The notes below the pieces were generated by a model that was not told where the DNA came from, did no database searches, and worked only from the letters and a program-made list of their open reading frames with translations. Both the position numbers and the translations under genes were made by a program. DNA of 64,000 bases from an uncultured Planctomycetota bacterium (GTDB lineage Bacteria; Planctomycetota; Planctomycetia; Isosphaerales; Isosphaeraceae), in assembly GCA_963845755.1 (NCBI GenBank), contig CAWJTV010000005.1, forward strand, positions 160,001 through 224,000. Direction: 5' to 3'. This document shows, piece by piece, positions 33,273 to 45,604 of the stretch (positions within the stretch are counted from its first letter, which is position 1; each line of letters starts with the position of its first letter).

Positions 33273-35324
33273 CTAACGACGTCGCCCGGACCTGGTCTTG
33301 GCACGGGATCGGGCTCCCTCCGCCTGCGGGGTTGCGGCGGGACGTCGAGGACCGTCACCCTGGGACGAACGAAGCTCGAGGATCTTGTCCCGGAGGGCCG
33401 CGGCGCGTTCGAATTCTAGCTTTTCGGCCGCCTCGAGCATCTCGGCCTCGAGGGCGGTGAGGTACTCTTCGGTAGCGTCAGTGGCCTCGTCGCGGCCGGC
33501 GGCCTTGCGCACGATGGTCCTGGCCTGGATCTGCTCCTCGATGCCCCGACGGATCGCTTTCTTGATCGACTCGGGCGTGATGCCGTGCTCCTGGTTGTAG
33601 GCGAGTTGCAGGGTGCGCCGGCGGTTGGTCTCGTCGATGGTGCGCTGCATCGAGGCCGTGATCTTGTCGGCGTAAAGTACGACCTCGGCGTTGACGTGGC
33701 GGGCCGAGCGACCGATGGTCTGGATGAGCGAGGTCTCGCTGCGGAGGAAGCCCTCCTTGTCGGCGTCGAGGATACAAACCATCGACACCTCGGGCAGGTC
33801 GAGCCCCTCGCGCAGCAGGTTGACGCCCACGAGGGCATCGAAGGCCCCTTCGCGCAGCTCGCGGAGGATACTGACCCGCTCGAAGGCATCGAGCTCCGAG
33901 TGCAGCCACTTGCAGCGCAGGCCCTGCTCCTTGAGGTAGCGCGACAAATCCTCGGCCAGGCGTTTGGTGAGGGTCGTAATCAGGACCCGCTCGCTCCTGG
34001 CCGCTCGGGCCCTGATCTCGTTGAGGAGCGCCGGGACCTGCCCGCGCGCGGCTCCACGCGCACGATCGGGTTGACCAACCCCGTCGGCCGGATCACCTGC
34101 TCGACGACCTCGCCGCCGGACATCGCGACCTCGTAGTCGCCCGGCGTGGCCGAGACGTACAGCCGCCGCTCGAATTTCTTCTCCCACTCGTCGAACCGCA
34201 AGGGTCGGTTGTCCAGTGCACTGGGGAGCCGGAACCCGTGGTTCGACCAGCGTGCTCTTGCGGCTGAAGTCGCCGGCGAACATCCCCCGGATCTGTGGGA
34301 CGGTCACATGCGATTCGTCCAGGAAGATCAGGCTATCGGCGGGGAAGAAGTCGAGTAGCGTACTGGGGGTCTCACCCGGCTTGCGTCCCGAGAGGGGCCG
34401 GGAGTAATTCTCGATGCCCGAGCAATATCCGACCTCGAGGAGCATCTCCATGTCGTATCGGGTCCGAGCACCCAGTCGCTGGGCCTCCAGGAGTTTTCCT
34501 TGCTCCTTCAGTTCCTTGAGCCGCTGCTCCAGCTCCTCGTTGATGGCCTCCACGGCCCCCTTGATCCGCTCTTCGGGTAGGACGAAGTGCTTGGCCGGGT
34601 AGACGTACATCTCCTGGTGCGTCTCCAGGACGGAGCCGGAGACGGGCTCGATCGTCGCCAGCCGCTCGACCTCGTCGCCAAACAGCTCGATCCGGTAGCC
34701 GAACTCCTCATAAGCCGGCCAGAGCTCGACGACATCGCCGCGCACGCGGAATTTACCCCGTTCGAACGACACGTCATTCCGGTCGTACTGGATATCCACG
34801 AACTTCCGAAGCATCTCGTCGCGGTCGATCATATCTCCCAACTTAAGCCGAACCATCATCTTGCGGTAGTCGTCCGGCGAACCTAACCCGTAAATGCACG
34901 ACACGCTGGCCACGACAATCACATCGTCGCGACTGACCAGCGCGCTGGTGCAGGCCAGACGGAGGCGCTCGATCTCGTCGTTGATCGCGGCATCCTTCTC
35001 GATATAGATGTCGCGCTGAGGGATATACGCCTCGGGCTGGTAATAGTCGTAGTAGCTGACGAAGTATCGCACGGCGTTGTGCGGGAAGAAGTCCTTGAAT
35101 TCGGCATAGAGCTGGGCGGCCAGGGTCTTGTTGTGCGACATGACCAGCGCGGGACGCCCATACTGGGCGATCACGTTGGCCATGGTGAACGTCTTTCCAG
35201 AGCCGGTGACCCCCAATAGCGTTTGATTGGATCGCCCCTTGCTCAGTCCATCCACCAGGCTCTCGATCGCCTGAGGTTGATCGCCGGCCGGCGGGAACGG
35301 GCTCACAAGCTGGAATTTGGACAT
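33273..35324 (-). CDS. uvrB: excinuclease ABC subunit B, compensating frameshifts near 34240 and 34050
   Basis: [55 protein letters not shown]-terminal UVR motif [11 protein letters not shown]. Confidence 0.98.
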
Positions 35325-35615: not shown

Positions 35616-36569
35616 TCGAGTTTTGTAATTGTTGCGAACCTGGATCATCCATCGTCACAAGCTTTCTGCCAAAGGCTGGATCCTGATGGTTCTATTCTAA
35701 TGTATAGCGAGTCGGATTCCATCCGAGGATTCCGTTTTGGGACATGGACCCAAGTTGGTGAGGACCTATGGTTTTGGGTGAGTGCAATCGATCACAGGCG
35801 CAGGCTCGATGGAGGGTTGCAATCATCCAGTAAGTCCGCCAGCCAACGATCGAAGTCCTCGGCGATCCCCACGGGGACAGCGCGGTAGTGGGATTGCCGG
35901 TCCCCAGGACCCCCTCAACGCCGCGAAGTACGGGGACTACCCGGCGCCCGGCTCGTTCGACTCCCAGGGACCGGCCTGAGGCGCGGATCGTGGCACAACG
36001 TGGCACGCTCAGTCATAAAAGGAGAACGCGCCCCTCCCTGATCTTGTTGGCCGGAACCGAGTTCGGTACGAACGCCTGCCGGGTCAATCCGGTCGAGTTT
36101 GGCGACCGGTCGCCGACGGGTTATGGTATCCCCGGACATGAGTTTTTGGCGCCTCGGAGACGGCGGGAAAGTGATTGTGCGCACCTCTACTTTTCAGTAT
36201 GCCTCAACTTTGGAAAACCGTTAATGCACCTAGTCACGGATGCACGATTTTTGCGCCCGAACGATAAACAGCGGTAAGAGATAGAGATTTTCGCAAAAAA
36301 AAATTGATAGGAGACTGCGCGGCTGCGTCGGCCTCTTGACGGCAGAGGAAGGAATGGAGGACTGGTGTGAACCGAGCGGAGGGCCTCCTCGCGGCCAGCT
36401 CGGCGCCAGCGCTGACGGGCACGGGGACGGATGGTTTTCGGCGAGGACTCTCTACATTCGTCGCGTTTTTCCAGGACCATGATGACTGCGCGGCTGCATT
36501 CTGCTCGAGGCTCGCGGTCGTGGTTCGTCCGACGGTTGAAACGTCTGACCCTCGTCGTGGAAGATACGA

Positions 36570-38654
36570 TCACACGATCGCCCAGAAGGGGCGCCCATCG
36601 GGGGTTCGCTTCGGGTGAAGTCGAATGCGCGATCGGGGATCGGTGTTCTGCCCCAGCAGGTGATACATGTCGTAGAGGACGCCGTGAGCCTCGGCGAAGT
36701 AACCGTGCCCGAGGATGGAGAGGTCCAACCCGGTGACCTCGACCGTATCGATGCCATCGACGACCGTGACCGGCGGGGCATACCCCACGCGATCGAACTG
36801 GTGAATCCAGTGCGAGGCTTCCAGGGCGCGGTCGCGAGCGGAGACATAGAGCGTTGTCCGCTCCGAAATCTTGGGATAGAGGGTTGCCAGGTCGCGGAAA
36901 AGGCCGACGTCGAGATCGGGAGCTGCGAGGAACATCTGGCCGAAGCGAATTCCCGCCGTTGAGGCTGCCTGGGCTGTGATCCGCTGGATCGCCCGCAATA
37001 GGCCGCGGTTGCCCATGCTGTGGGCGATCACGTGAAGGCGGGCCGCGCCGCTGTCGGTCGCGAGGTGGACGAGGAAATCAGTGATCGCGGCCTCGCTGGC
37101 CTCGATGCTGGCTTCATCGGAAGCATAGCCTTTGAGTGCGCCCCGCGACGGCCAACTGAAGAACGACATCGCGCCCGGGACTTTCAGGTCGAAGCCGATC
37201 TGGGCCGCGCGGATGGCTGCCTCGTCGAACGAGACGTTGTATCCGTGCAGATAGACAAGGACCTGCGGCTCATCAGCATCGTCCGGGGTCAGCTCGCGCC
37301 GGATGGCCTTCCAGAATGCGTCCCTGGCGATCTCATCCCGCTGGACGATGCGGAGCCGATCATCTTTCCAGATGAGCCAGCGCTTCCACCAGGCGGAGCC
37401 GACCGAACCGAACTGGTGCGACTTGGGGATCGCGACCAGACATTTCCCGTAATGAACGACGTTCTGACTCTCGCGATCGCCGGAATACCCCGCGGACGTA
37501 TCGGACGAATCGCGATAACTCCGATTGGTACCGTACCAGACCGGGTAGACGCGAGGGAGACTCGCATCGGCGCTGTATTTCGCGACGCTGGTTCCTCCGG
37601 CCTCAAGCCCTTTCGACGACCCGCCGCCACCCTTCTTGGGACGATGGCCACCCATCCCAACGAACTCCAAGCCCTCCGAGTCAATCTCACGGGTGATCTC
37701 ATTCCGATCGCCCAGGATGATGATGTTGCCGGAGACATCTCCGCCGGCGGCGAATGACCGTTCCCCGATGGCCTGGACGATCCGCCCGATGGTCACATGG
37801 GCTTGCTTTTCGTAGGCCGACCACCCACCCGCCGGGAGTCCCTTACCACCGCGGAGGAGCGCCACGGGGAAGTCCGTCGTGGCGTTGTAATCGAAGTGCG
37901 GCTCTTGCTCGGCGTTGCAAAGTTTCCGAGCACTCTCGGGCACGGCCTTGCCCAGGTAATTCATCAGGTCGGAGAGTTTGACGGTCGTTTCGCCCGGCCG
38001 ATTGTTGGCACCTTGCAGGGCCTCGATGAGGTGGTAGGTGTAGACGCTCATCGTCCCATCGGGCCGCACCCACGACTTTTGTTGGCCACCCGATGAGGTG
38101 AAGACGGCTCGCCCCGCGCCCTGTTTGAGCACATCAACCACCGCCTTGGGTGGGGGCGCCGGGACAAGATCCTTGGGGAACTTGATGGCGGCTTGACCCC
38201 CTTTGGCCGTGGCCATACCCTCGGCGTGGCAGCAATCCAGGATTGCCAGCAGCCGCTCTGCCTTGATCCGGCGCAGTAGCTTGATGAACTCCGGTGCCGG
38301 AATGGCCGAGCGGGGAACGTCGAGCGGATCGGCGTCATGAGGGATCAGGAAGTAGCGGCTGGTCCCCTTATTGAGCCAGCCATGGCCGGAAAAGTAGACG
38401 ACCGCGGTCGCGTGCGGGTCGGCGGCGACTTGCTGGGCCAGCCAGTCCAGTCCCTCAAGGATCGCGTCGCGAGTGGCCTGTCGATCGTGAAGCAGCCGCA
38501 CATGGTCTTCGGGATAGGCGCAGAGGCTCTGGTCGATGAGCACGGCCTGGATCGCCTGGGCGTCCTTCACGGTCACTGGGAGTGACCACTTATCGTACTG
38601 GGCCTGCCCGACGCCGATGAGCAGGGCGTATCCTTGATCGAAGGTCTCGGCCAT
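36570..38654 (-). CDS. caspase-like (peptidase C14) domain + amyloid-like linker motif + DUF900-type alpha/beta hydrolase
   Basis: Intact ORF; YALLIGV, VVYFSGHG (His), ILDCCH (Cys); then VWYGTNR, VYLHGYN, FSWPS, IAHSMG (Ser), LAAPD and GHGYF. Confidence 0.92.
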   Translation of the reverse strand: MAETFDQGYALLIGVGQAQYDKWSLPVTVKDAQAIQAVLIDQSLCAYPEDHVRLLHDRQATRDAILEGLDWLAQQVAADPHATAVVYFSGHGWLNKGTSRYFLIPHDADPLDVPRSAIPAPEFIKLLRRIKAERLLAILDCCHAEGMATAKGGQAAIKFPKDLVPAPPPKAVVDVLKQGAGRAVFTSSGGQQKSWVRPDGTMSVYTYHLIEALQGANNRPGETTVKLSDLMNYLGKAVPESARKLCNAEQEPHFDYNATTDFPVALLRGGKGLPAGGWSAYEKQAHVTIGRIVQAIGERSFAAGGDVSGNIIILGDRNEITREIDSEGLEFVGMGGHRPKKGGGGSSKGLEAGGTSVAKYSADASLPRVYPVWYGTNRSYRDSSDTSAGYSGDRESQNVVHYGKCLVAIPKSHQFGSVGSAWWKRWLIWKDDRLRIVQRDEIARDAFWKAIRRELTPDDADEPQVLVYLHGYNVSFDEAAIRAAQIGFDLKVPGAMSFFSWPSRGALKGYASDEASIEASEAAITDFLVHLATDSGAARLHVIAHSMGNRGLLRAIQRITAQAASTAGIRFGQMFLAAPDLDVGLFRDLATLYPKISERTTLYVSARDRALEASHWIHQFDRVGYAPPVTVVDGIDTVEVTGLDLSILGHGYFAEAHGVLYDMYHLLGQNTDPRSRIRLHPKRTPDGRPFWAIV
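37701..37772 (-). other. putative amyloid signalling motif in the effector (AIGERSFAAGGDVSGNIIILGDRN)
   Basis: Sits between the caspase and hydrolase domains; 13/24 identical, ungapped, to 42137..42208. Confidence 0.75.
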
Positions 38655-38693
38655 GAACACCTCGCGATTGGGGTGGTTCGCTCCGTCCGTGGC

Positions 38694-41600
38694 TCACGGC
38701 CACCAGCGGCCGACTTCTTCGATTGCAGTACAGGTCTCGGCGATCGCTTCTGAACCGCCCAGGCGCGGGATCAGCGGCGCGAGCGACGCGAGGTCGGAAA
38801 GGAGGTCGCTGCGCGATCGCGTCGCGAGAAGTCGGAGCGTTTCTGACCAAAGTAGGGACAGCCGTGTGTGTGGCAGCGCCGCCAGCCGGGGTGCCACTGC
38901 CGTCAGGGCAGCAGCCCGGGACTCGTTGTGCTGAATATCCCGCGCCACCGCCGACGCCTCATCCACTCGACCCAGCGCCGCTAGTGTACGAGCCAGCACC
39001 CAGTCGTCGCCGATCCGCCTCGCGTTTGCCAGTGCGTCATCGGTCTGGCCCAACTCCGCCAGGCGGGGTAACAGCGCTGCCAGGGCGTGTACGCGGCCTA
39101 ACTCGTCGCCGGTGCTCCGTGCTATCGCCATCGCCGCCTCCACTTGACTCAGCTCCGTCAGGCGCGGCGCCACCGACGCCAAGGCGGCGACCCGGGCCCA
39201 CGGGTCGCCTGACTCTCGTGCGATCCCTAGCGCCTCATCCACTTCACCGATCGTAGCCAGGCCCTGGCCCGAGCCCACTCCCGCTCGATCCCCCGCGCCA
39301 GCAACAGTGCCTCCTCAAGCCGACCCACATCCGCCAATCGAGGCGCCAACTCCGCGAGAGCGAAGGCCCGGGCAGACTCATCGGCGACCCCATGCGCCAG
39401 ACTCAACGCTTGCTCGAACCGGCCCGCATCCGCCAGCCGGGCGCCAACTCTGCGAGGGCGAAAGCCCGGGCCGACTCGTCGCTGATCCCCCGGGCCAATG
39501 CCAACGCGTCATCGACCTGACCGAGCTCCCCAAGGGCGCGGGCCCGGGCCGACTCGTCGCCGATCCTCCGTGCCATCACGAGCGCATCATTGGTCCGACC
39601 CAACCTCGCCAGGTGGGGTGCAAACTTCGCCAGGACATTGTCGCGGGTTCGTTCGTCACCGATCCCCCGGACCACCGTGAGCGCCTCCTTCACCCGATCC
39701 GCATCCGCCAGGCGGGGCCAATGCTCCCAGGTCCCGGGCACGCTGCCACTCGTTTTTGATCTCCCGCACTGCTCGTATCGCTTCATCGACTCGGCCTGCG
39801 TCCGCCAGCCGGGCGCCAGGTTCGCTCGTGCAGCAGCCCGAGCCTGCACGGGTTCGATCTCCATCACTACTCCAATGCCCTATCCAACTGTCCGAGTTCC
39901 GCCAGGCGAGGCATCAGCGCCACAAGCGGCAAGGATTTGAGCGCCCATCGTCCTCGATCGTCGAGTGCCACCGCGAGCGACCGCCTGACCCGATCCGCAT
40001 CCGGCAGAAGGCGCCATCTTCACCAGGGCGAGGGCCCGGGACCCCTCGTTCGGATCTCCCGGGCCACCGCCAGCGCCTCATCCGCCTGACCAATCGCCGC
40101 CAGGCGCAGGCCCGAGCCCACTCAGGCCCGATTCCGGCGTAAGCGCCATCGCGACATCGACCCCGACCAGTGCCGCGAGTCGTGGCGCCAGCGCCGCCAG
40201 GGCACCGGCCCGGCACCCTTCGTCATCGATTCGCCGCGCCGCCGCCAGCGCCCGGTTCGACATGGGCGGGCTCCGCCAAGTGAGGAGCCATCTCCTCAAT
40301 AGCGATGGCCCGGGTGCTTTCGGCGGCGATTCCGCCTGCCACCGCCAGCCGCCTCATCCACGTGACCGAGCTTTGCCAAGGCGACGGCCCGCATCCTGCT
40401 CACCCCCGATTCTCCGCGCCGCCGCCAACGCCTTTTGCAGCACCGTCCGCCTCTCGTGGTGATCGTAGATGGGGGGTGATCCCGATGATGGCATCGACTC
40501 CTTCTTCCGGTGGCAAAGACCGGCGTAGGCAAGGCCCTGCGAAGCGGACCAGATCCCTTTCTCAACAAAGGCGGCGAGCAGGGCCGGAGGGATCTTCCGA
40601 GCCAGGCTATTGAGGGACGTGGACATCAAGGCATAACGAATCTCCAGTCCGATGCATGCCTTGTGCTGGCTCGGCTCGGCGCCCGGCCGATCGACGACTT
40701 GCACCAGTCGTGCGGCCCGATCAAGTCGTTCATGTACCCCGACGCGGGCTGGTCCAGACGTGCTCGCGGGACTGTGTACCAGACATTCTCAGTACGGACC
40801 GAACCACAGTCCTCGGCCCCGTCGACCCGCCTCTCTAGTCGGAGCAAGCGGTGGAGGTCGTCGAAGCGGCCGGCCCGTTCGAGGTGCTCGGCCATATGCC
40901 GCAGGCCGTAGCCATCGAGATCCACTCTTCTGCGGGGTCGAACAAGGCGGGAAGGCCCGCGTCCAGGCCACCCCAGGCGAGACAGGTAGAGGGTCGCGAC
41001 CCGATCGTGCGTCGCGCCGAGGTGGACCATGTCTTCCTCGTCCAAGAAATCGACAAACGACTGGTGAACGACGCGCCATCGCTTGCGGTCGGCCTCTGGC
41101 ATCATGGCTCAGGAATCGTCGCCATCGTCTCAGCGCCGCGTTCCTCGATCTCTGCGGGCGAGCGGTTGACCCACGAAGGCCAGCCAGGATGCCGACACCG
41201 CCTCGCGGGCCGCGGCCAGGAATGCGATCACGGGTTTATAGAGACTCTCCCACTCGGCCCAGCCCTCCTGGCCCCGCACCTGCTCCATCTGCTTCCAGAA
41301 CTGCTGATAGTAGCCCCGCAGGCCGAGCGGGAGTGACTCGAGGTCGAGCGGGTCGAAACCCGGCTCGCGCGCGGCGATGTCGGCCAGGACGTAGTCGAGA
41401 TACTTGAAATTGCCCTCGCTCTTGTCCTTCAGGAACGCAACGAATTGCTCGATCGAGATCGGCGGTTTCGCTGCCTCCCGCGCCTGGAGGATCTCAGGCT
41501 GGTCTGCCTCCTGGTTGAGATAGGCGACGAGATCCTCCTGCTGGGCGGCGTCGTCGGAGGTGATGAGGTAGTCCTCGTCGGCCGTGCCCGCATCGGTCGT

Positions 41601-42754
41601 GAGAGAGATCTCGCCGGGGCGATGGGTCAGGAGCATGTAGACGCCGCGCAGGGAGCCGAGTCGGGAGCAGCAGCGTGTTGCGGCCCGGCTCGAGGGGATC
41701 GGCCTCATCGAGGGCGTCAACGACGATCCAGACCGGCCCCTCTGCCTTGGCGGCGGCCTCGGAGAGCACCTTGCCCAGGAACGACGAGTCCTCGCCCGCG
41801 CGGGCCGGCAGGTGGTCGTGGGCCAGGCCGAAGCGGGCAATCAATTCAACGGCGAGGTGGTTGAGGCACTGGTCGGGACGGGTCAGGCCGCCGACTGGCA
41901 ATGGTGAAGAAGGCGGGCGCTTTCAGCCGCTTGGATGCTTCCGCGGCGATCGCCGTCTTGCCCAGGCCGGCGTCGGCCACGACCCGGAAATAACCGCAGG
42001 GATGCCGCTTGGCGAAGGCGTCCAGGCGTCGGAAAAGTTCAGCCCGGCCGACGAATCGCTCTGACACCTTCTTGATCAGGTCATCGAAGTCGATGGCATA
42101 GTCTTTGAGCGAAGGGTAGAGTTTGACGATGGTCTGGTAGACGTCGCCGATCTGAAAGACGTTATCCCGAGCATCGCCGCCGATCGCGAAAGCTCGTTCC
42201 CCGATGGCTTTCGCCACGTGGGCTGGAGAAGGAAGTTCTTCGATCTCGGTCCGAGCCATTTCCTCGGTCGCCCCCCCAGTGTCGTGCTCGGAAAGCCACT
42301 GGCCCAGATCGGTTGCGACCTTGGCTTGCAGATCATCGGGATCGCAAAAACGCGTGGCGTTGCCGCTCTGGATCAGCTCGGACGCAAGGCCGGATCGCGC
42401 TGCCGATGACTTGGACTTTCCCCTCCCGCGCTTGGCGGCCGTCTTTGGCTCATCCTTGACATAGATCAGACAGCGTAACTCGTGCTGATTCGCGCGGCGG
42501 TACTCCGGTTCGAAATGGATTGCGGACGCCTGACCGCCAAGGAAGCCGATGTAGAGCTGGCCCCGGGACGGTTCGAACGGCCTTGTGCCCGTCCCCTCAT
42601 CGTCGTCGAAGGCGACCCACTCCAATCCGGGGAAAGTCGTCTCGCGGAGCCGCATCAGGGTTCGCTCGACCGCCGCGCGCTCCGGCGCCAGTTTGGACGG
42701 CACGGAGCCGAGCACGATTCGGATGAGTCTCGGTCGGTCCGTTCCGGCTTCCAT
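38694..42754 (-). CDS. NLR-like STAND ATPase: degenerate DUF4062-like domain, amyloid-like motif, NACHT-like NTPase, helical/WH domain, TPR-like repeats; many frameshifts
   Basis: Walker A VVADAGLGKT (~41954-41977); Walker B IVVDALDE (~41705-41730); SEGNFKYL; LPLGLRGYY; VHQSFVDFL; YGLRHMAEHL; repeats ARRIGDESARARAL; C-terminus EVGRWWP. Confidence 0.8.
42137..42208 (-). other. putative amyloid signalling motif in the NLR (AIGERAFAIGGDARDNVFQIGDVY)
   Basis: Just N-terminal to the NTPase region; matches 37701..37772 including an identical 14-nt stretch gccatcggggaacg. Confidence 0.75.
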
Positions 42755-42946
42755 CGGTCTCCTTCGGACTCGCGGTGCGTCGCGGCCCTCTCGACCATCA
42801 CATGCGCAATCCGATTATCCAGTCTCAATCGACCTGCGGCAACGACCAAGTCGAGAGCAGCTCCGAGGTGTCTTCGGTTGACGAGGGCCACATCGTCAAT
42901 GGGAGCGCTGCGCGGAAACCTTGCCGGGAAGTGGCCGAGACAGATG

Positions 42947-43310: not shown

Positions 43311-43706
43311 CGGAGGCGATCCTCGGCCACCAGGAGAGCGCTGTCGCTTTGTGGCCGGCCCGCGAGGCTATGAAGGCTGGCCTCGGCGCGCTCGCGGGTT
43401 GCGATTGCCTCGCCGCGCCGCCTCGTCACGTCGTGCCGGTGCCGGAACCCATTCGAGGTTCGTCCGTTCGCAATTCAGACGGTTGCCGTCTTTGAATCGG
43501 ACGACATGGCCCGGTGGCCGTGGGCCGACCAACGCCTCCAGGACCAGCTCGGCCAGTAGCCGCGTCTGTGGTCGTCCTTGATCATGATAGAGGGAGATGA
43601 TCTTGTTGCCCTCGACGTCTACGATGGCCGGAACCTGAACCCACTCGTCCCGGCGATCAGAATCGTGTCCCGGTGGATCGGTCCTGTGCTGAGGCTGGGT
43701 GGACAT
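43307..43706 (-). CDS. putative antitoxin: degenerate HNH_3-like domain + VapB/FitA-like C-terminal tail (frameshift near 43410)
   Basis: LVLEALVGPRPPGHVVRFKDGNRLNCERTNLEWV, then in the shifted frame LAGRPQSDSALLVAEDRLR*; stop overlaps the vapC start (GTGA). Confidence 0.6.
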
Positions 43707-43890
43707 GCGAATGAACTCCGTACGTGGGGCAATCGTGCCACGCACCATGATGACGCCGGATCGGTCGGCTTGAAAGGCTGCCTCCAGGGGAAACGTCATG
43801 TCGCTTTCCCATCGCCTCCGGGTCAACAACCTATTAGAATCGTGGGGAAATGGTGCGAGAGCTAGGGCGATCCTCGGGGGGGCGACGCCG

Positions 43891-44462
43891 ATGAGCGAAG
43901 TGAGTGGACTCCTGGAGGCGATCGGCCGGGGTGAGCCGCAACGGGCGCGCGAGCTGTTGCCCATCGTTTATGAGGAGCTGCGAAAGCTCGCCGAGGCCAG
44001 GCTCGCCCGTGAGCCGACGGACAGACCCTCCAGGCGACCGCGCTGGTCCACGAGGCCTTCCTCCGGCTGGTCGGCGACGGGGACGGCCCGGCCTGGGAGA
44101 ATCGCGGCCACTTCTTCGCCGCCGCAGCCGAGGCGATGCGGCGCATCCTCGTCGAGAAGGCCCGGCATAAGCGTCGAAGACGCCATGGCGGCGGGCTCCA
44201 ACGTGTCAACCTCGACCAGGTCGCTCTCGGCGACGACGACGCGGCCGGCGATCTGCTGGCACTCCACGAGGCCCTCGATCAGCTCGCCGCCGAGGAGCCG
44301 GTCGCCGCCGAGGTCGTCAAGCTCCGCTATTTCGCCGGCCTGACCACCGAGCAGGCTGCCTCGGCCCTCGACATATCCCTGCGCACTGCCAACCGCCACT
44401 GGGCCTACGCCCGCGCCTGGCTCCACCAGCGTCTCAACTCTGCGGGCGACACGCCGGCTTGA
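43891..44462 (+). CDS. ECF sigma factor, planctomycete kinase-associated type; frameshift near 44020
   Basis: MSEVSGLL..., LLPIVYEELRKLA, TLQATALVHEAFLRL, HFFAAAAEAMRRILV, VVKLRYFAGL, WAYARAWL. Confidence 0.93.
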
Positions 44463-44660: not shown

Positions 44661-44808
44661 CCGGATCGATCGCCGGATGGTAGACGCCCTCGCCGAGGGC
44701 GAAGAGGCTCTGTAGACGGGCAAACATCGGAGTGCGATCGGTCCCAGGGTCTCGGGTGATGGTCGCCCGACGCCGCCGCTCGAAAAACTTCGGAAACAGG
44801 AGACGACA

Positions 44809-45379
44809 GTGATGTTCATCTTCCCGATCTCCCGTCGCCAGACTGACCGTCCCCACGTCCGACTACCTCGGGCCCGCCGCCCACTCGTCGAGAACCTCGA
44901 AGGCCGGCGACTCCTCTCGGGCATCCAGGGCAACCACATCGGTGTGATGAGTGTCGCGCCGGCGATCGTGGGCCAACACATCGGCACCGCGGCCATCCAG
45001 GGCAACCACATCGGCACCCCGGCGATCGTGGGCCAACACATCGGCAGAGCGCACCGAGGTCGTCCAGGGCAAGCACATCGGCACGGACGTCGCCCCGGCC
45101 ATCCTGGGCAACCACATCGGCACCCCGGCGATCGTGGGCCAACACATCGGCACCGCGGCCATCCAGGGCAACCACATCGGCACCCCGGCGATCGTGGGCC
45201 AACACATCGGCATGGGCGTCACCCAGGTCGTCCAGCGCAAGCACGTCGGCGAGGATGTCGTCCCGGCCGTCCAGGCGCCCCCCGCTCCTGGTAACTTCTC
45301 AATGACCGTAGGAAACCACCTCGGCAGGGGCGTCACCCCGGCCATCGTGGGCGACGACATCGGCCATAATCTCATGTGA
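44809..45379 (+). CDS. small planctomycete LExRxLLS-motif protein made of GxHIG repeats; frameshift near 45050
   Basis: AGGAGA SD; RRPLVENLEGRRLLS, then 12 units such as IQGNHIG and IVGQHIG. Confidence 0.8.
44921..45212. repeat. 30-bp coding tandem repeats (two alternating unit types)
   Basis: ggcaccccggcgatcgtgggccaacacatc and ggcaccgcggccatccagggcaaccacatc; block ~44958-45045 recurs at ~45125-45212. Confidence 0.9.
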
Positions 45380-45604
45380 GGGACGCCCCGTGTCGCGACT
45401 CGTCGGGCCACCGGATGAGGATTCCGGGTCGGGAAGGCGAGTCGCGATGCCGAGGGCGGCTCGCCACCTGACGCGTCGTCAGCGAGGTGTGTAACGACCG
45501 CCGTCACGCCCGCTTGCAAGCGGCTGTCTCGGGAGGGACAATATGCCACGACTCTCTGGGACTCATGCGGGATACCAGTCGGACGATGGAGTAAGGCCCG
45601 GATC

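What the first reader, a model, noticed from the sequence alone, without database searches (positions are those of the whole stretch)
36570..42754. Candidate amyloid-coupled NLR-caspase immune operon: sensor and effector share a 24-aa motif
Seen: two co-oriented genes 39 bp apart. The first is an NLR-like STAND ATPase with AIGERAFAIGGDARDNVFQIGDVY (42137-42208) just ahead of its NTPase region. The second is a caspase-like protein with AIGERSFAAGGDVSGNIIILGDRN (37701-37772) right after its protease domain. The motifs align without gaps (13/24 identical, conservative changes in the beta-prone core, identical 14-nt DNA stretch) and I see no other similarity between the proteins. Known: a short motif shared between an NLR N-terminal region and an adjacent effector is the layout of amyloid signalling in fungi (NWD2/HET-S, sigma and PP motifs), of RHIM signalling, and of bacterial BASS motifs. 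From memory the pattern A.G.R..A.GG......GD resembles a BASS family. Inference: ligand-triggered NLR oligomerisation templates an amyloid that clusters and activates the protease-hydrolase, giving an inflammasome-like abortive-infection system. I am not aware of this caspase plus hydrolase arrangement or of a planctomycete example, but could not search.
Basis: partly seen in the sequence, partly recalled or inferred. Interest (0 to 1): 0.95.

Follow-up and report, generated by a model that had tools for sequence, protein, structure and literature searches.

The report
Sensor and caspase-hydrolase sharing BASS6 motif
Two neighbouring genes of a probable planctomycete, an NLR-like sensor ATPase and a caspase-plus-hydrolase enzyme, carry the same short tag of a published bacterial "amyloid signalling" family, so this is a fresh layout of a known immune or cell-death design, and the sensor gene may be broken here.

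Summary
Both 24-residue motifs lie at the stated coordinates and are 13/24 identical. They are the only significant similarity between the two proteins (BLASTP E 1e-5). They are also the only two significant profile matches in the whole 14.3 Mb assembly.

The motif belongs to a published family. It matches the BASS6 class ("C09") in the training set of Dyrka et al. 2021 (15/23 and 13/24 identical to listed rows).

The pairing recurs. Related STAND sensors in Planctomycetota, Chloroflexota, Actinomycetota and metagenomes have a neighbouring gene with the same motif. Sensors with other N-terminal motifs have neighbours with those motifs instead. Own-partner similarity beats shuffled partners.

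Two features differ from the textbook layout. The motif is internal in both proteins: DUF4062-like domain, motif, NTPase in the sensor; caspase, motif, DUF900 hydrolase in the effector. The phylum is also unreported in the papers I searched.

Three cautions apply:
- Amyloid formation by BASS6 is untested in what I read.
- The motif is also kept in single-chain "all-in-one" relatives.
- The sensor gene has about 13 frame changes as assembled, and its sister species has it cut by a transposase.

Verdict: new variant of a known kind, moderate interest. This scan has found similar motif-coupled caspase and NLR pairs on other DNA.

The parts
38694..42754 (-). Sensor gene: STAND (NACHT/NPHP3_N-like) NTPase with TPR-like repeats, ending ...EDVGRWWP. 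As assembled it is split over all three frames, with about 13 frame changes.
   Evidence: Frame map. tblastn with full-length homologues P0121 and P0126. Homologues of 1263-1510 aa. NPHP3_N is above cut-off in P0125 and P0130, and TPR_30 is found in P0126.
42260..42754 (-). N-terminal DUF4062-like domain of the sensor (aa 1-165). It is a diverged version lacking the SST and RYG stretches of its relatives.
   Evidence: It aligns with P0123 and P0124, which hit Pfam DUF4062 (P0123 1.5e-15). The window's own segment gives no Pfam hit at E<=1. AF2 pLDDT is 70 with a flavodoxin-like fold; Foldseek matches to TIR and nucleoside deoxyribosyltransferase are only weak.
42137..42208 (-). BASS6-like motif, sensor side (aa 183-206), followed by YPSLKDY (42098-42118) and FVGR (42044-42055).
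   Evidence: 13/24 identical to row C09_s014
41954..41968 (-). Walker A GLGKT (aa 263-267 of the first ORF)
   Evidence: invariant in alignment A1
41704..41730 (-). Walker B WIVVDALDE, read in a different frame from Walker A
38697..40420 (-). C-terminal array of about 30-residue repeats (ALA.LAP.L...EAL.vARgI.de..Ra), the presumed ligand-sensing part
   Evidence: Pfam TPR_30 in homologue P0126
38655..38693 (-). 39-nt spacer with GAGG five bases before the effector ATG
36570..38654 (-). Effector gene: caspase, motif, DUF900 hydrolase. It is one open frame.
   Evidence: dN/dS is 0.21 against the 79%-identical orthologue of G001.
37872..38633 (-). Peptidase C14 (caspase) domain, with SGHG (38379-38390) and DCCH (38226-38237) carrying the His/Cys dyad
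   Evidence: Pfam 3.9e-19, 69.7 bits. H93 and C144 are invariant in A2. Foldseek best matches are MALT1 paracaspase and metacaspases, E 8e-10.
37701..37772 (-). BASS6-like motif, effector side (aa 297-320), in a stretch that AF2 leaves unfolded (residues 299-368, pLDDT below 50)
   Evidence: 15/23 identical to row C09_s051
36675..37304 (-). DUF900 alpha/beta hydrolase domain, with HSMGN nucleophile elbow (37008-37022), AAPDLD (36909-36926) and LGHGYF (36696-36713)
   Evidence: Pfam 1.7e-44, 152.5 bits. S548, D582/D584 and H652 are invariant in A2. Confidently folded at residues 370-696.

Best explanation
This is a two-gene NLR/effector module of the regulated-cell-death or anti-invader type, coupled by a BASS6-family motif. 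Shown: a STAND NTPase with C-terminal TPR-like repeats and an adjacent caspase-DUF900 protein share a motif of a published NLR-associated amyloid-signalling class. The pair is unique in the genome. The same pairing recurs in related loci of several phyla. Inferred: ligand binding to the repeats drives NTP-dependent oligomerisation of the sensor. This brings several copies of its motif together, and they nucleate a cross-beta assembly. The exposed, unstructured copy between the two enzyme domains of the effector joins this assembly. Effector molecules are thereby polymerised, and the caspase is activated by proximity, as in caspase, metacaspase and MALT1-type proteases (recalled). The caspase then acts on cell proteins and/or cuts its own linker to free or activate the DUF900 hydrolase. 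The end result is probably cell death or growth arrest. In this assembly the sensor may be non-functional.
For: - The motifs and their uniqueness are confirmed.
- Class identity: rows of class C09 in supplement 1 of PMC8086366 match at 15/23 (C09_s051 against the effector) and 13/24 (C09_s014 against the sensor). The archive's README states C09 == BASS6.
- Pairs scoring on both sides with the motif HMM occur in the window and in L022, L025, L032, L033, L038, L040 and L041, out of 47 fetched loci plus the window. L035 was seen by pattern.
- In 14 of 44 loci with a usable sensor N-terminus, a neighbouring ORF matches that N-terminus above the best null score. Five of these carry the BASS6 type and nine carry other motif types, each matched to its own neighbour.
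- Within the BASS6 class, own-partner similarity exceeds shuffled partners. Identity is 10.82 against 9.33, with 45 of 20,000 permutations reaching it. BLOSUM62 is 58.6 against 48.6, with 1 of 20,000 (11 pairs).
- AF2 leaves residues 299-368, which include the motif, unfolded between two confident domains.
- The caspase dyad and the hydrolase Ser/Asp/His are conserved.
- The effector is under purifying selection, dN/dS 0.21.
- BASS motifs next to CHAT and alpha/beta-hydrolase effectors, and prion-like behaviour of BASS1 and BASS3, are reported in the 2020 preprint. The abstract of the 2024 preprint reports amyloid-controlled phage defence by Bab/Agp.
Against: - No experiment on BASS6 appears in the passages and sections I read.
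- The motif is not terminal. It follows a 165-residue domain in the sensor. In the effector family, all 59 motif-bearing caspases have 82-699 residues after it.
- The motif, or its ITGDHNVVYQ half, is kept in single-chain relatives where no transfer between proteins is needed: P0041, P0120, P0043, P0133, P0134/L024, L028 and L029.
- Within the class, specificity is weak. The window's sensor motif is 13/24 identical to its own effector, and one other effector in the set scores higher (rank 2 of 11).
- The sensor needs about 13 frame changes in 4.06 kb. rpoB needs 1 in 3.65 kb, rpoC needs 2 in 4.1 kb, and the effector needs 0 in 2.1 kb.
- In G001 the sensor lacks its first ~543 residues next to a DDE transposase.
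- The permutation test does not control for relatedness. Three of its pairs are assumed adjacent only from equal contig lengths.
Confidence: 0.6

Rival explanations
1. The motif is a homotypic adaptor but not a self-propagating amyloid. It would be a short beta-strand element that forms a finite inter-subunit sheet or collar in the oligomerised sensor and captures proteins carrying the same element in fixed stoichiometry. This follows the logic of the effector-associated domains (EADs) of Kaur et al. 2020.
For: - The motif is internal in both proteins.
- It is kept at the junction of all-in-one caspase-NTPase proteins, and its second half is a constant part of the sensor clade just before YP.LKDY.
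- Sub-threshold Pfam EAD10 matches lie directly after the motif in relatives: P0053 at 22.1 bits against a cut-off of 24.1, and also P0036, P0039, P0092 and P0009.
Against: - The motif belongs to a class defined on Bell-domain C-termini paired with NLR N-termini, the context in which BASS1 and BASS3 behaved as prions.
- AF2 gives it no fold in the monomer.
- The window's motif segments give no EAD10 match at E<=10.
Confidence: 0.25
2. In this organism the module is a decaying remnant. The sensor is a recent pseudogene, so the motif pair has no present function, whatever its ancestral mechanism. This reading is compatible with either mechanism above.
For: - The sensor has about 13 frame changes in 4.06 kb. 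That is several-fold denser than in rpoB, rpoC and the adjacent effector.
- The sister species G001 has the sensor truncated beside a transposase, and a search with the sensor's N-terminal 302 aa found nothing else there (genome 87% complete).
Against: - Essential genes are also frame-broken, so the assembly carries indel errors.
- Related MAG loci L025 and L033 are fragmented in both sensor and effector.
- Each sensor piece stays open over its homologous extent and still shows dN/dS of 0.24-0.49 against G001.
- The effector is intact, with dN/dS 0.21.
Confidence: 0.35
3. The similarity is chance, low complexity or a recent local gene conversion without function.
For: There is an identical 14-nt stretch. 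The motif is Gly-rich.
Against: - It is the only pair in 246,868 ORFs.
- It is conserved at a fixed distance of 145-167 residues after the catalytic Cys in 59 of 77 caspase homologues.
- It is conserved in sensors of several phyla.
- Only 14 nt are identical out of 72.
Confidence: 0.02

Closest known systems
BASS6, one of ten bacterial amyloid signalling sequence families paired between Bell-domain (or CHAT, TIR2, alpha/beta-hydrolase, guanylate cyclase) proteins and adjacent NLRs. Sources: Dyrka et al. 2020 preprint 10.1101/2020.01.06.895854 (passages and section 9 read); Dyrka et al. 2021 PMC8086366 (passages, section 13, parts of supplement 1 read).
   Same: The motif sequence class is the same (C09 = BASS6). 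It sits on a STAND NTPase with TPR-like repeats and on the product of the adjacent gene. The pairing recurs across loci. The effector types, a caspase-fold protease and an alpha/beta hydrolase, are the kinds listed there.
   Different: The motif is internal in both proteins rather than at the sensor N-terminus and effector C-terminus. One effector carries both a Peptidase_C14 caspase and a DUF900 hydrolase. The sensor has an extra DUF4062-like domain. The host is a probable planctomycete, whereas the paper places BASS6 in Actinobacteria and Cyanobacteria. Their Figure S5 and tables were not visible to me.
Fungal NWD2/HET-S and sigma or PP motif systems with SesB-type hydrolase effectors. These are described in the introduction of the 2020 preprint; details beyond that are recalled.
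   Same: The logic is the same: the NLR and the adjacent effector share a roughly 20-25 residue motif, and enzymatic (alpha/beta hydrolase) effectors occur.
   Different: There is no sequence relation. Those effectors carry the motif at an end. Prion templating is shown there and not here.
Bab/Agp BASS11 antiphage system of E. coli (Ibarlosa et al. 2024 preprint 10.1101/2024.11.07.622273; abstract and outline read)
   Same: Adjacent genes share an amyloid motif and there is an abortive-infection outcome. It is the only BASS system in what I read with a demonstrated defence role.
   Different: The motif family differs. Its effector is pore-forming and Bell-like rather than an enzyme. I did not compare the two partner proteins.
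EAD coupling principle and the EACC1-caspase two-gene system (Kaur et al. 2020, PMC7159879; passages read)
   Same: A small shared module links a core NTPase to separately encoded effectors. A constant N-terminal caspase is followed by a variable C-terminal effector domain, with proposed deployment by autoproteolysis.
   Different: The window's motif gives no Pfam EAD10 match. The caspase scores 98.4 bits against a cut-off of 140 for the NCBIfam EACC1-type caspase. No EACC1 gene was looked for.
Inflammasome, MALT1-BCL10 and apoptosome type proximity activation of caspase-fold proteases (recalled knowledge)
   Same: A sensor oligomer or filament concentrates a caspase-fold protease. The model's best structural matches are MALT1 and metacaspases.
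   Different: Those systems use death-fold domains as adaptors, not a 24-residue beta motif. There is no homology outside the protease fold.

Membership tests
BASS (NLR-associated bacterial amyloid signalling sequence), class BASS6 | A short motif of about 20-40 residues shared between a STAND/NLR protein and the product of an adjacent gene, with no other similarity | tested here: met
   13/24 identical. It is the only significant HSP (E 1e-5). The genes are 39 nt apart.
BASS (NLR-associated bacterial amyloid signalling sequence), class BASS6 | Sequence match to the published class | tested here: met
   Compared by eye with rows of class C09 in supplement 1 of PMC8086366: effector 15/23 against C09_s051, sensor 13/24 against C09_s014. 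README: C09 == BASS6. The authors' profile HMM was not available, so no score against it.
BASS (NLR-associated bacterial amyloid signalling sequence), class BASS6 | Motif at the N-terminus of the NLR and the C-terminal end of the effector | tested here: not met
   The sensor motif is at aa 183-206, behind a 165-residue domain. The effector motif is at aa 297-320 of 696. Relatives with the textbook layout do exist (L022, L041, P0125, P0130).
BASS (NLR-associated bacterial amyloid signalling sequence), class BASS6 | Pairing recurs in related loci, and partners resemble each other more than non-partners | tested here: met
   14 of 44 loci are above the null. In the permutation test of 11 pairs, 45 of 20,000 (identity) and 1 of 20,000 (BLOSUM62) permutations reach the observed value. 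Relatedness is not controlled.
BASS (NLR-associated bacterial amyloid signalling sequence), class BASS6 | Composition rich in G, N, Q, V and I, and poor in P, K and L | tested here: met
   Read from the two motifs. Neither has P or K. There is one L in the effector motif and none in the sensor motif. Each has 5 G.
BASS (NLR-associated bacterial amyloid signalling sequence), class BASS6 | Forms amyloid and templates its partner (prion-like) | not testable with these tools
   No amyloid predictor or bench test was at hand. BASS6 is not among the motifs tested in the texts I read.
STAND / NLR-like NTPase | Walker A, Walker B, and a C-terminal repeat array in one polypeptide | tested here: inconclusive
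   GLGKT, WIVVDALDE and TPR-like repeats are present and homologous to full-length proteins. They lie in different frames as assembled. The window pieces score below the Pfam cut-offs, while homologues P0125 and P0130 pass NPHP3_N.
Peptidase C14 (caspase/metacaspase) | Pfam match above cut-off, a His/Cys dyad, and a caspase fold | tested here: met
   69.7 bits against a cut-off of 21.4. SGHG and DCCH are conserved. Best structural matches are MALT1 and metacaspases.
DUF900 alpha/beta hydrolase (PF05990) | Pfam match above cut-off, and a nucleophile elbow with Asp and His | tested here: met
   152.5 bits against a cut-off of 20.5. HSMGN, AAPDLD and LGHGYF are invariant in A2.
EAD10 (PF19954) of Kaur et al. 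2020 | Pfam profile match over the motif region | tested here: not met
   No match at E<=10 for either window segment. Relatives match only below the cut-off, and only after the motif.
EACC1-caspase two-gene system | Caspase of the EACC1-associated type, and a 5' EACC1 gene | tested here: not met
   NCBIfam NF047832 scores 98.4 bits, below the cut-off of 140. The gene 5' of the effector is the STAND sensor.
DUF4062 (PF13271) | Pfam profile match on the sensor's N-terminal domain | tested here: inconclusive
   There is no hit at E<=1 for window aa 1-182. The segment aligns along its length with P0123 (DUF4062, 1.5e-15) and P0124.
Catalogued anti-phage systems (PADLOC-DB 2.0) | Match to a system-specific model | tested here: not met
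   The effector matches only a generic 'caspase' model. Sensor homologues match STAND_TPR and Avs1b weakly.

The most novel reading that the evidence does not exclude
BASS6 in this sensor clade may not be merely a transferable amyloid tag. It could be a built-in assembly collar of the NTPase. That would explain why it is kept in all-in-one proteins and sits internally. The caspase-BASS6-X proteins (X = DUF900, TCAD2, KTSC, EAD7/9 or an NTPase) would then form a modular toolkit. In it, collar-driven polymerisation switches on the constant caspase, which cuts the linker and releases the variable domain X. The window would be a double-effector version of this: a DUF4062-like domain carried on the sensor, plus a caspase-released hydrolase.
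Probability: 0.2. Interest if true: 0.7.

Novelty: new variant of a known kind. Interest (0 to 1): 0.45.

Why it matters
If the mechanism holds, it widens amyloid-type immune signalling in two ways. The first is lineage: the 2020 paper tied it to filamentous Actinobacteria and Cyanobacteria, and this locus is from a probable planctomycete. The second is effector type: here a two-enzyme effector carries the signalling motif in an internal linker rather than a tail. The caspase-BASS6-X family gives a compact test case for how a cross-beta motif could switch on a caspase-fold protease, a bacterial counterpart of inflammasome logic. The retention of the motif in all-in-one relatives bears on whether these motifs are true prion-like transmitters or simply oligomerisation elements. 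The principle itself is published, so the gain is incremental.

Tried and rejected
- **Complex prediction.** Complex prediction on the two motif-bearing segments (sensor 165-240, effector 280-345, with alignments) gave no verdict: score 0.00, controls not run. It counts neither for nor against binding.
- **Sequencing runs.** The look-up of sequencing runs for 36500-42800 listed none, so the frame breaks could not be checked against reads.
- **Pfam EAD10** on the window's motif segments gave no match.
- **PADLOC** showed no catalogued system.
- **Homopolymer context** of the frame breaks: only 4 of 13 junction stretches hold a run of 4 or more, which is not informative.
- **Promoter and terminator scan** gave 1 promoter-like site against 0.9 expected, so nothing usable.
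- **Fold of the sensor's N-terminal domain** gave only weak, mixed flavodoxin-like matches with TM at or below 0.51, so no TIR assignment is made.
- **Phylum-wide search** with the sensor alignment mostly hit the repeat region. Besides G000, only G214 and G132 of 301 genomes matched non-repeat parts, so it says little beyond rarity.
- **Literature searches** found no paper holding both DUF900 and caspase. They found none linking BASS or amyloid NLR signalling to Planctomycetes beyond an incidental co-mention. The 2025 ASM-detection paper has none of my six terms.
- **Chance similarity or gene conversion** was rejected on the recurrence of the pairing in distant loci.


Full report
**Observation.**
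- The effector is one open frame, 36570-38660(-). Its likely start is the ATG at 38654, behind a GAGG.
- The sensor starts at 42754 and ends with a TGA at 38694-38696, 39 nt before that ATG.
- The motifs lie at 42137-42208 and 37701-37772. They are 13/24 identical without gaps.
- BLASTP of the two proteins gives this stretch as the only significant similarity (E 1e-5; next HSP E 0.91).
- The identical 14-nt string is real. The degenerate pattern has 2 matches against 0.19 expected, and 1 of 100 shuffles reached 2.
- Three motif expressions hit only these two places in the 14.27 Mb assembly.
- A profile built from homologues scores 36.6 and 23.2 bits for these two among 246,868 six-frame ORFs. 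The next best is 12.0 bits at E 0.7.

So the pair is specific, not a genome-wide low-complexity feature.

**The effector.**
- Pfam gives Peptidase_C14 at residues 10-263 (3.9e-19) and DUF900 at 453-662 (1.7e-44).
- The His/Cys dyad (SGHG, DCCH) and the hydrolase HSMGN, AAPDLD and LGHGYF stretches are invariant in a 24-sequence alignment.
- AF2 folds both domains with confidence. It leaves residues 299-368, which hold the motif, below pLDDT 50.
- The caspase part is most like MALT1 paracaspase and metacaspases (Foldseek E about 1e-9).
- Against the 79%-identical orthologue in the sister species G001, dN/dS is 0.21 (caspase 0.16, linker 0.27, DUF900 0.23).

**The sensor.** Full-length relatives of 1263-1510 residues (P0121, P0122, P0126, P0127, P0129) show this order of parts:
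1. An optional N-terminal domain.
2. The motif.
3. A conserved YP.LKDY...FVGR stretch.
4. A STAND NTPase with ADAGLGKT and a WIVVDALDE Walker B.
5. A helical region.
6. A long array of TPR-like repeats ending in EDVGRWWP.

The window has all of these. Its first 165 residues align with the DUF4062 domains of P0123 and P0124, though Pfam does not recognise the window's own diverged copy. Its model is flavodoxin-like, with only weak likeness to TIR and nucleoside deoxyribosyltransferase folds.

**State of the sensor gene.** tblastn with P0121 and P0126 needs ten main pieces in alternating frames. Two further short stretches (41136-41092 and 40978-40931) match in other frames. Together that is about 13 frame changes in 4.06 kb.
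- The assembly does carry indel errors. rpoB is in two pieces and rpoC in two frames. The uvrB translation has an out-of-frame stretch; this is my reading against recalled UvrB conservation.
- Related planctomycete MAG loci L025 and L033 are fragmented in both genes.
- Even so, the density of breaks in the sensor is several-fold higher than in those genes, and the adjacent effector has none.
- The sensor pieces stay open over their homologous extent. They show dN/dS of 0.24-0.49 against G001, so any decay would be recent.
- In G001 the sensor begins only at the equivalent of residue 544, next to a DDE transposase. A search of that genome (87% complete) with the N-terminal 302 residues found nothing.
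- No sequencing run could be listed to settle this.

**What the motif is.** Supplement 1 of Dyrka et al. 2021 (PMC8086366) lists the Bell-side training motifs by class. Class C09 holds rows such as C09_s010, C09_s014 and C09_s051, which carry the same pattern.
- By eye, the effector motif is 15/23 identical to C09_s051.
- By eye, the sensor motif is 13/24 identical to C09_s014.
- The archive's README gives C09 == BASS6.

[quoted passage not shown] It states that BASS 3-6 occur in Actinobacteria and Cyanobacteria. It reports that BASS1 and BASS3 behave as prion-forming domains. I saw no experiment on BASS6. Their Figure S5 and tables were not readable.

**Recurrence and co-variation.**
- Of the 120 best effector homologues listed (835 hits with E <= 0.001 among 8000 candidates scored), 77 carry the caspase dyad signature. 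Of those, 59 have the motif at 12 bits or more. It always lies 145-167 residues after the catalytic Cys, and 82-699 residues always follow it.
- What follows the motif varies: DUF900, TCAD2, KTSC, EAD7/9, CHAT or an NTPase.
- Scans with the sensor alignment returned 16 genome loci and 31 metagenome loci.
- The motif HMM scores on both the sensor and a neighbouring ORF in the window and in L022 (Thermoflexales), L025 and L033 (Planctomycetota MAGs), L032 (Actinoplanes), L038, L040 and L041. L035 (Streptomyces) shows a matching VSG.GAVGV pair by pattern.
- L041 has the textbook layout: a caspase ending in the motif, upstream of a DUF4062-motif-NTPase sensor.
- A class-blind test aligned each sensor's pre-NTPase segment to the same-strand ORFs of its locus that do not overlap the sensor ORF. 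In 14 of 44 loci a neighbour scored above the best null score. Five are of the BASS6 type. Nine carry other motifs (LVDTINA...IYGGVHQ, ISGGTQTGIIGA and others), each matched to its own neighbour. Many of the remaining contigs are too short to hold a neighbour.
- Within the BASS6 class I specified 12 pairs, and 11 aligned on both sides (L033 fell out). Own-partner identity is 10.82 against 9.33 for shuffled partners, reached by 45 of 20,000 permutations. BLOSUM62 is 58.6 against 48.6, reached by 1 of 20,000.
- That test does not control for relatedness. Three of its pairs are taken as adjacent only because the two proteins come from contigs of equal length.
- The window's own pair ranks second of 11 by both measures.

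**What does not fit the simple amyloid-relay picture.**
- The motif is internal on both sides here, and internal in all 59 motif-bearing caspases.
- It is kept at the junction of all-in-one caspase-NTPase proteins (P0041, P0120, P0043).
- Its second half (ITGDHNVVYQ) is a constant feature of the sensor clade, even when trypsin, CHAT or helical domains are fused upstream (P0133, P0134/L024, L028, L029).
- Sub-threshold EAD10 matches follow the motif in some relatives, but not in the window.

These points keep alive a rival reading in which the motif is a finite homotypic assembly element, as in the EAD principle of Kaur et al. 2020, rather than a self-propagating amyloid.

**Mechanism proposed.** Shown: the parts, their conservation, the shared class-BASS6 motif, its uniqueness in the genome, and its recurrent pairing. 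Inferred, in order:
1. Ligand binding to the repeats drives NTP-dependent oligomerisation of the sensor.
2. The clustered motifs nucleate a cross-beta assembly.
3. The unstructured copy in the effector linker joins it, so effector molecules polymerise.
4. The caspase is activated by proximity.
5. It cuts cell proteins and/or its own linker, deploying the DUF900 hydrolase.
6. The outcome is cell death or growth arrest.

The only demonstrated defence role of a BASS system in what I read is Bab/Agp in E. coli (abstract).

**Distribution and novelty.**
- The full-length effector was found in 2 of 61 related genomes (G000 and G001).
- Among 301 genomes sampled from the phylum, only G214 and G132 matched non-repeat parts of the sensor model, besides G000.
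- The titles of L025, L027 and L033 name Planctomycetota MAGs, which is my basis for the phylum.
- No paper in the library holds both DUF900 and caspase. None links BASS signalling with Planctomycetes. PADLOC has no matching system.
- This scan has noted motif-coupled caspase/NLR pairs on other DNA before.

I therefore file this as a new variant of a known kind. It has the same motif family and logic. It differs in placing the motif internally, in its two-enzyme effector, in carrying an extra sensor domain and in its phylum. Interest is moderate, and is tempered by the doubtful state of the sensor gene.

Noticed in passing
window 33273-35324 (-); G000:C34:79366-83015; G000:C34:567489-571586: Essential genes are frame-broken in this assembly. 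rpoB is in two pieces and rpoC in two frames. The uvrB translation has an out-of-frame stretch. So indel errors are present genome-wide.
   Followed up: partly
L054, L058, L060, L062, L059, L061, L046, L053, L026: The same sensor clade uses other N-terminal motif classes (LVDTINA..IYGGVHQ, ISGGTQTGIIGA and others). Each is matched by the C-terminus of a small upstream ORF or by a tandem sensor. The clade looks like a swappable-tag system.
   Followed up: partly
P0041, P0120, P0043; P0133; P0134 = L024:2375-6979; L028; L029: Single-chain caspase-NTPase proteins keep the BASS6-like motif at the domain junction. Trypsin-, CHAT- and helical-domain-fused sensors keep its second half, ..ITGDHNVVYQ.
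   Followed up: partly
L021:7068-10249 (G001:C5): In the sister species the sensor starts only at the equivalent of residue 544, beside a DDE transposase ORF. The caspase-DUF900 gene there is intact and still carries the motif.
   Followed up: yes
P0036, P0039, P0045, P0051, P0053, P0092, P0009: There is a family of caspase-motif-X proteins, where X is TCAD2, KTSC, EAD9, or EAD7+CHAT+DUF900. Many have a QQGKYNI extension after the motif that gives sub-threshold Pfam EAD10 matches.
   Followed up: partly
window 43368-43964 (-): An ORF with an HNH_3 endonuclease domain (5.2e-9) lies about 600 nt upstream of the sensor.
   Followed up: no
window about 44800-45550: Overlapping ORFs on both strands read as a peptide repeat (GNHIGTPAIVGQHIG...), which suggests a tandem DNA repeat.
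   Followed up: no
window 42260-42754 (-): The sensor's DUF4062-like domain has lost the SST and RYG stretches kept by P0123, P0124, L038 and L040. It may be an inactive version.
   Followed up: partly
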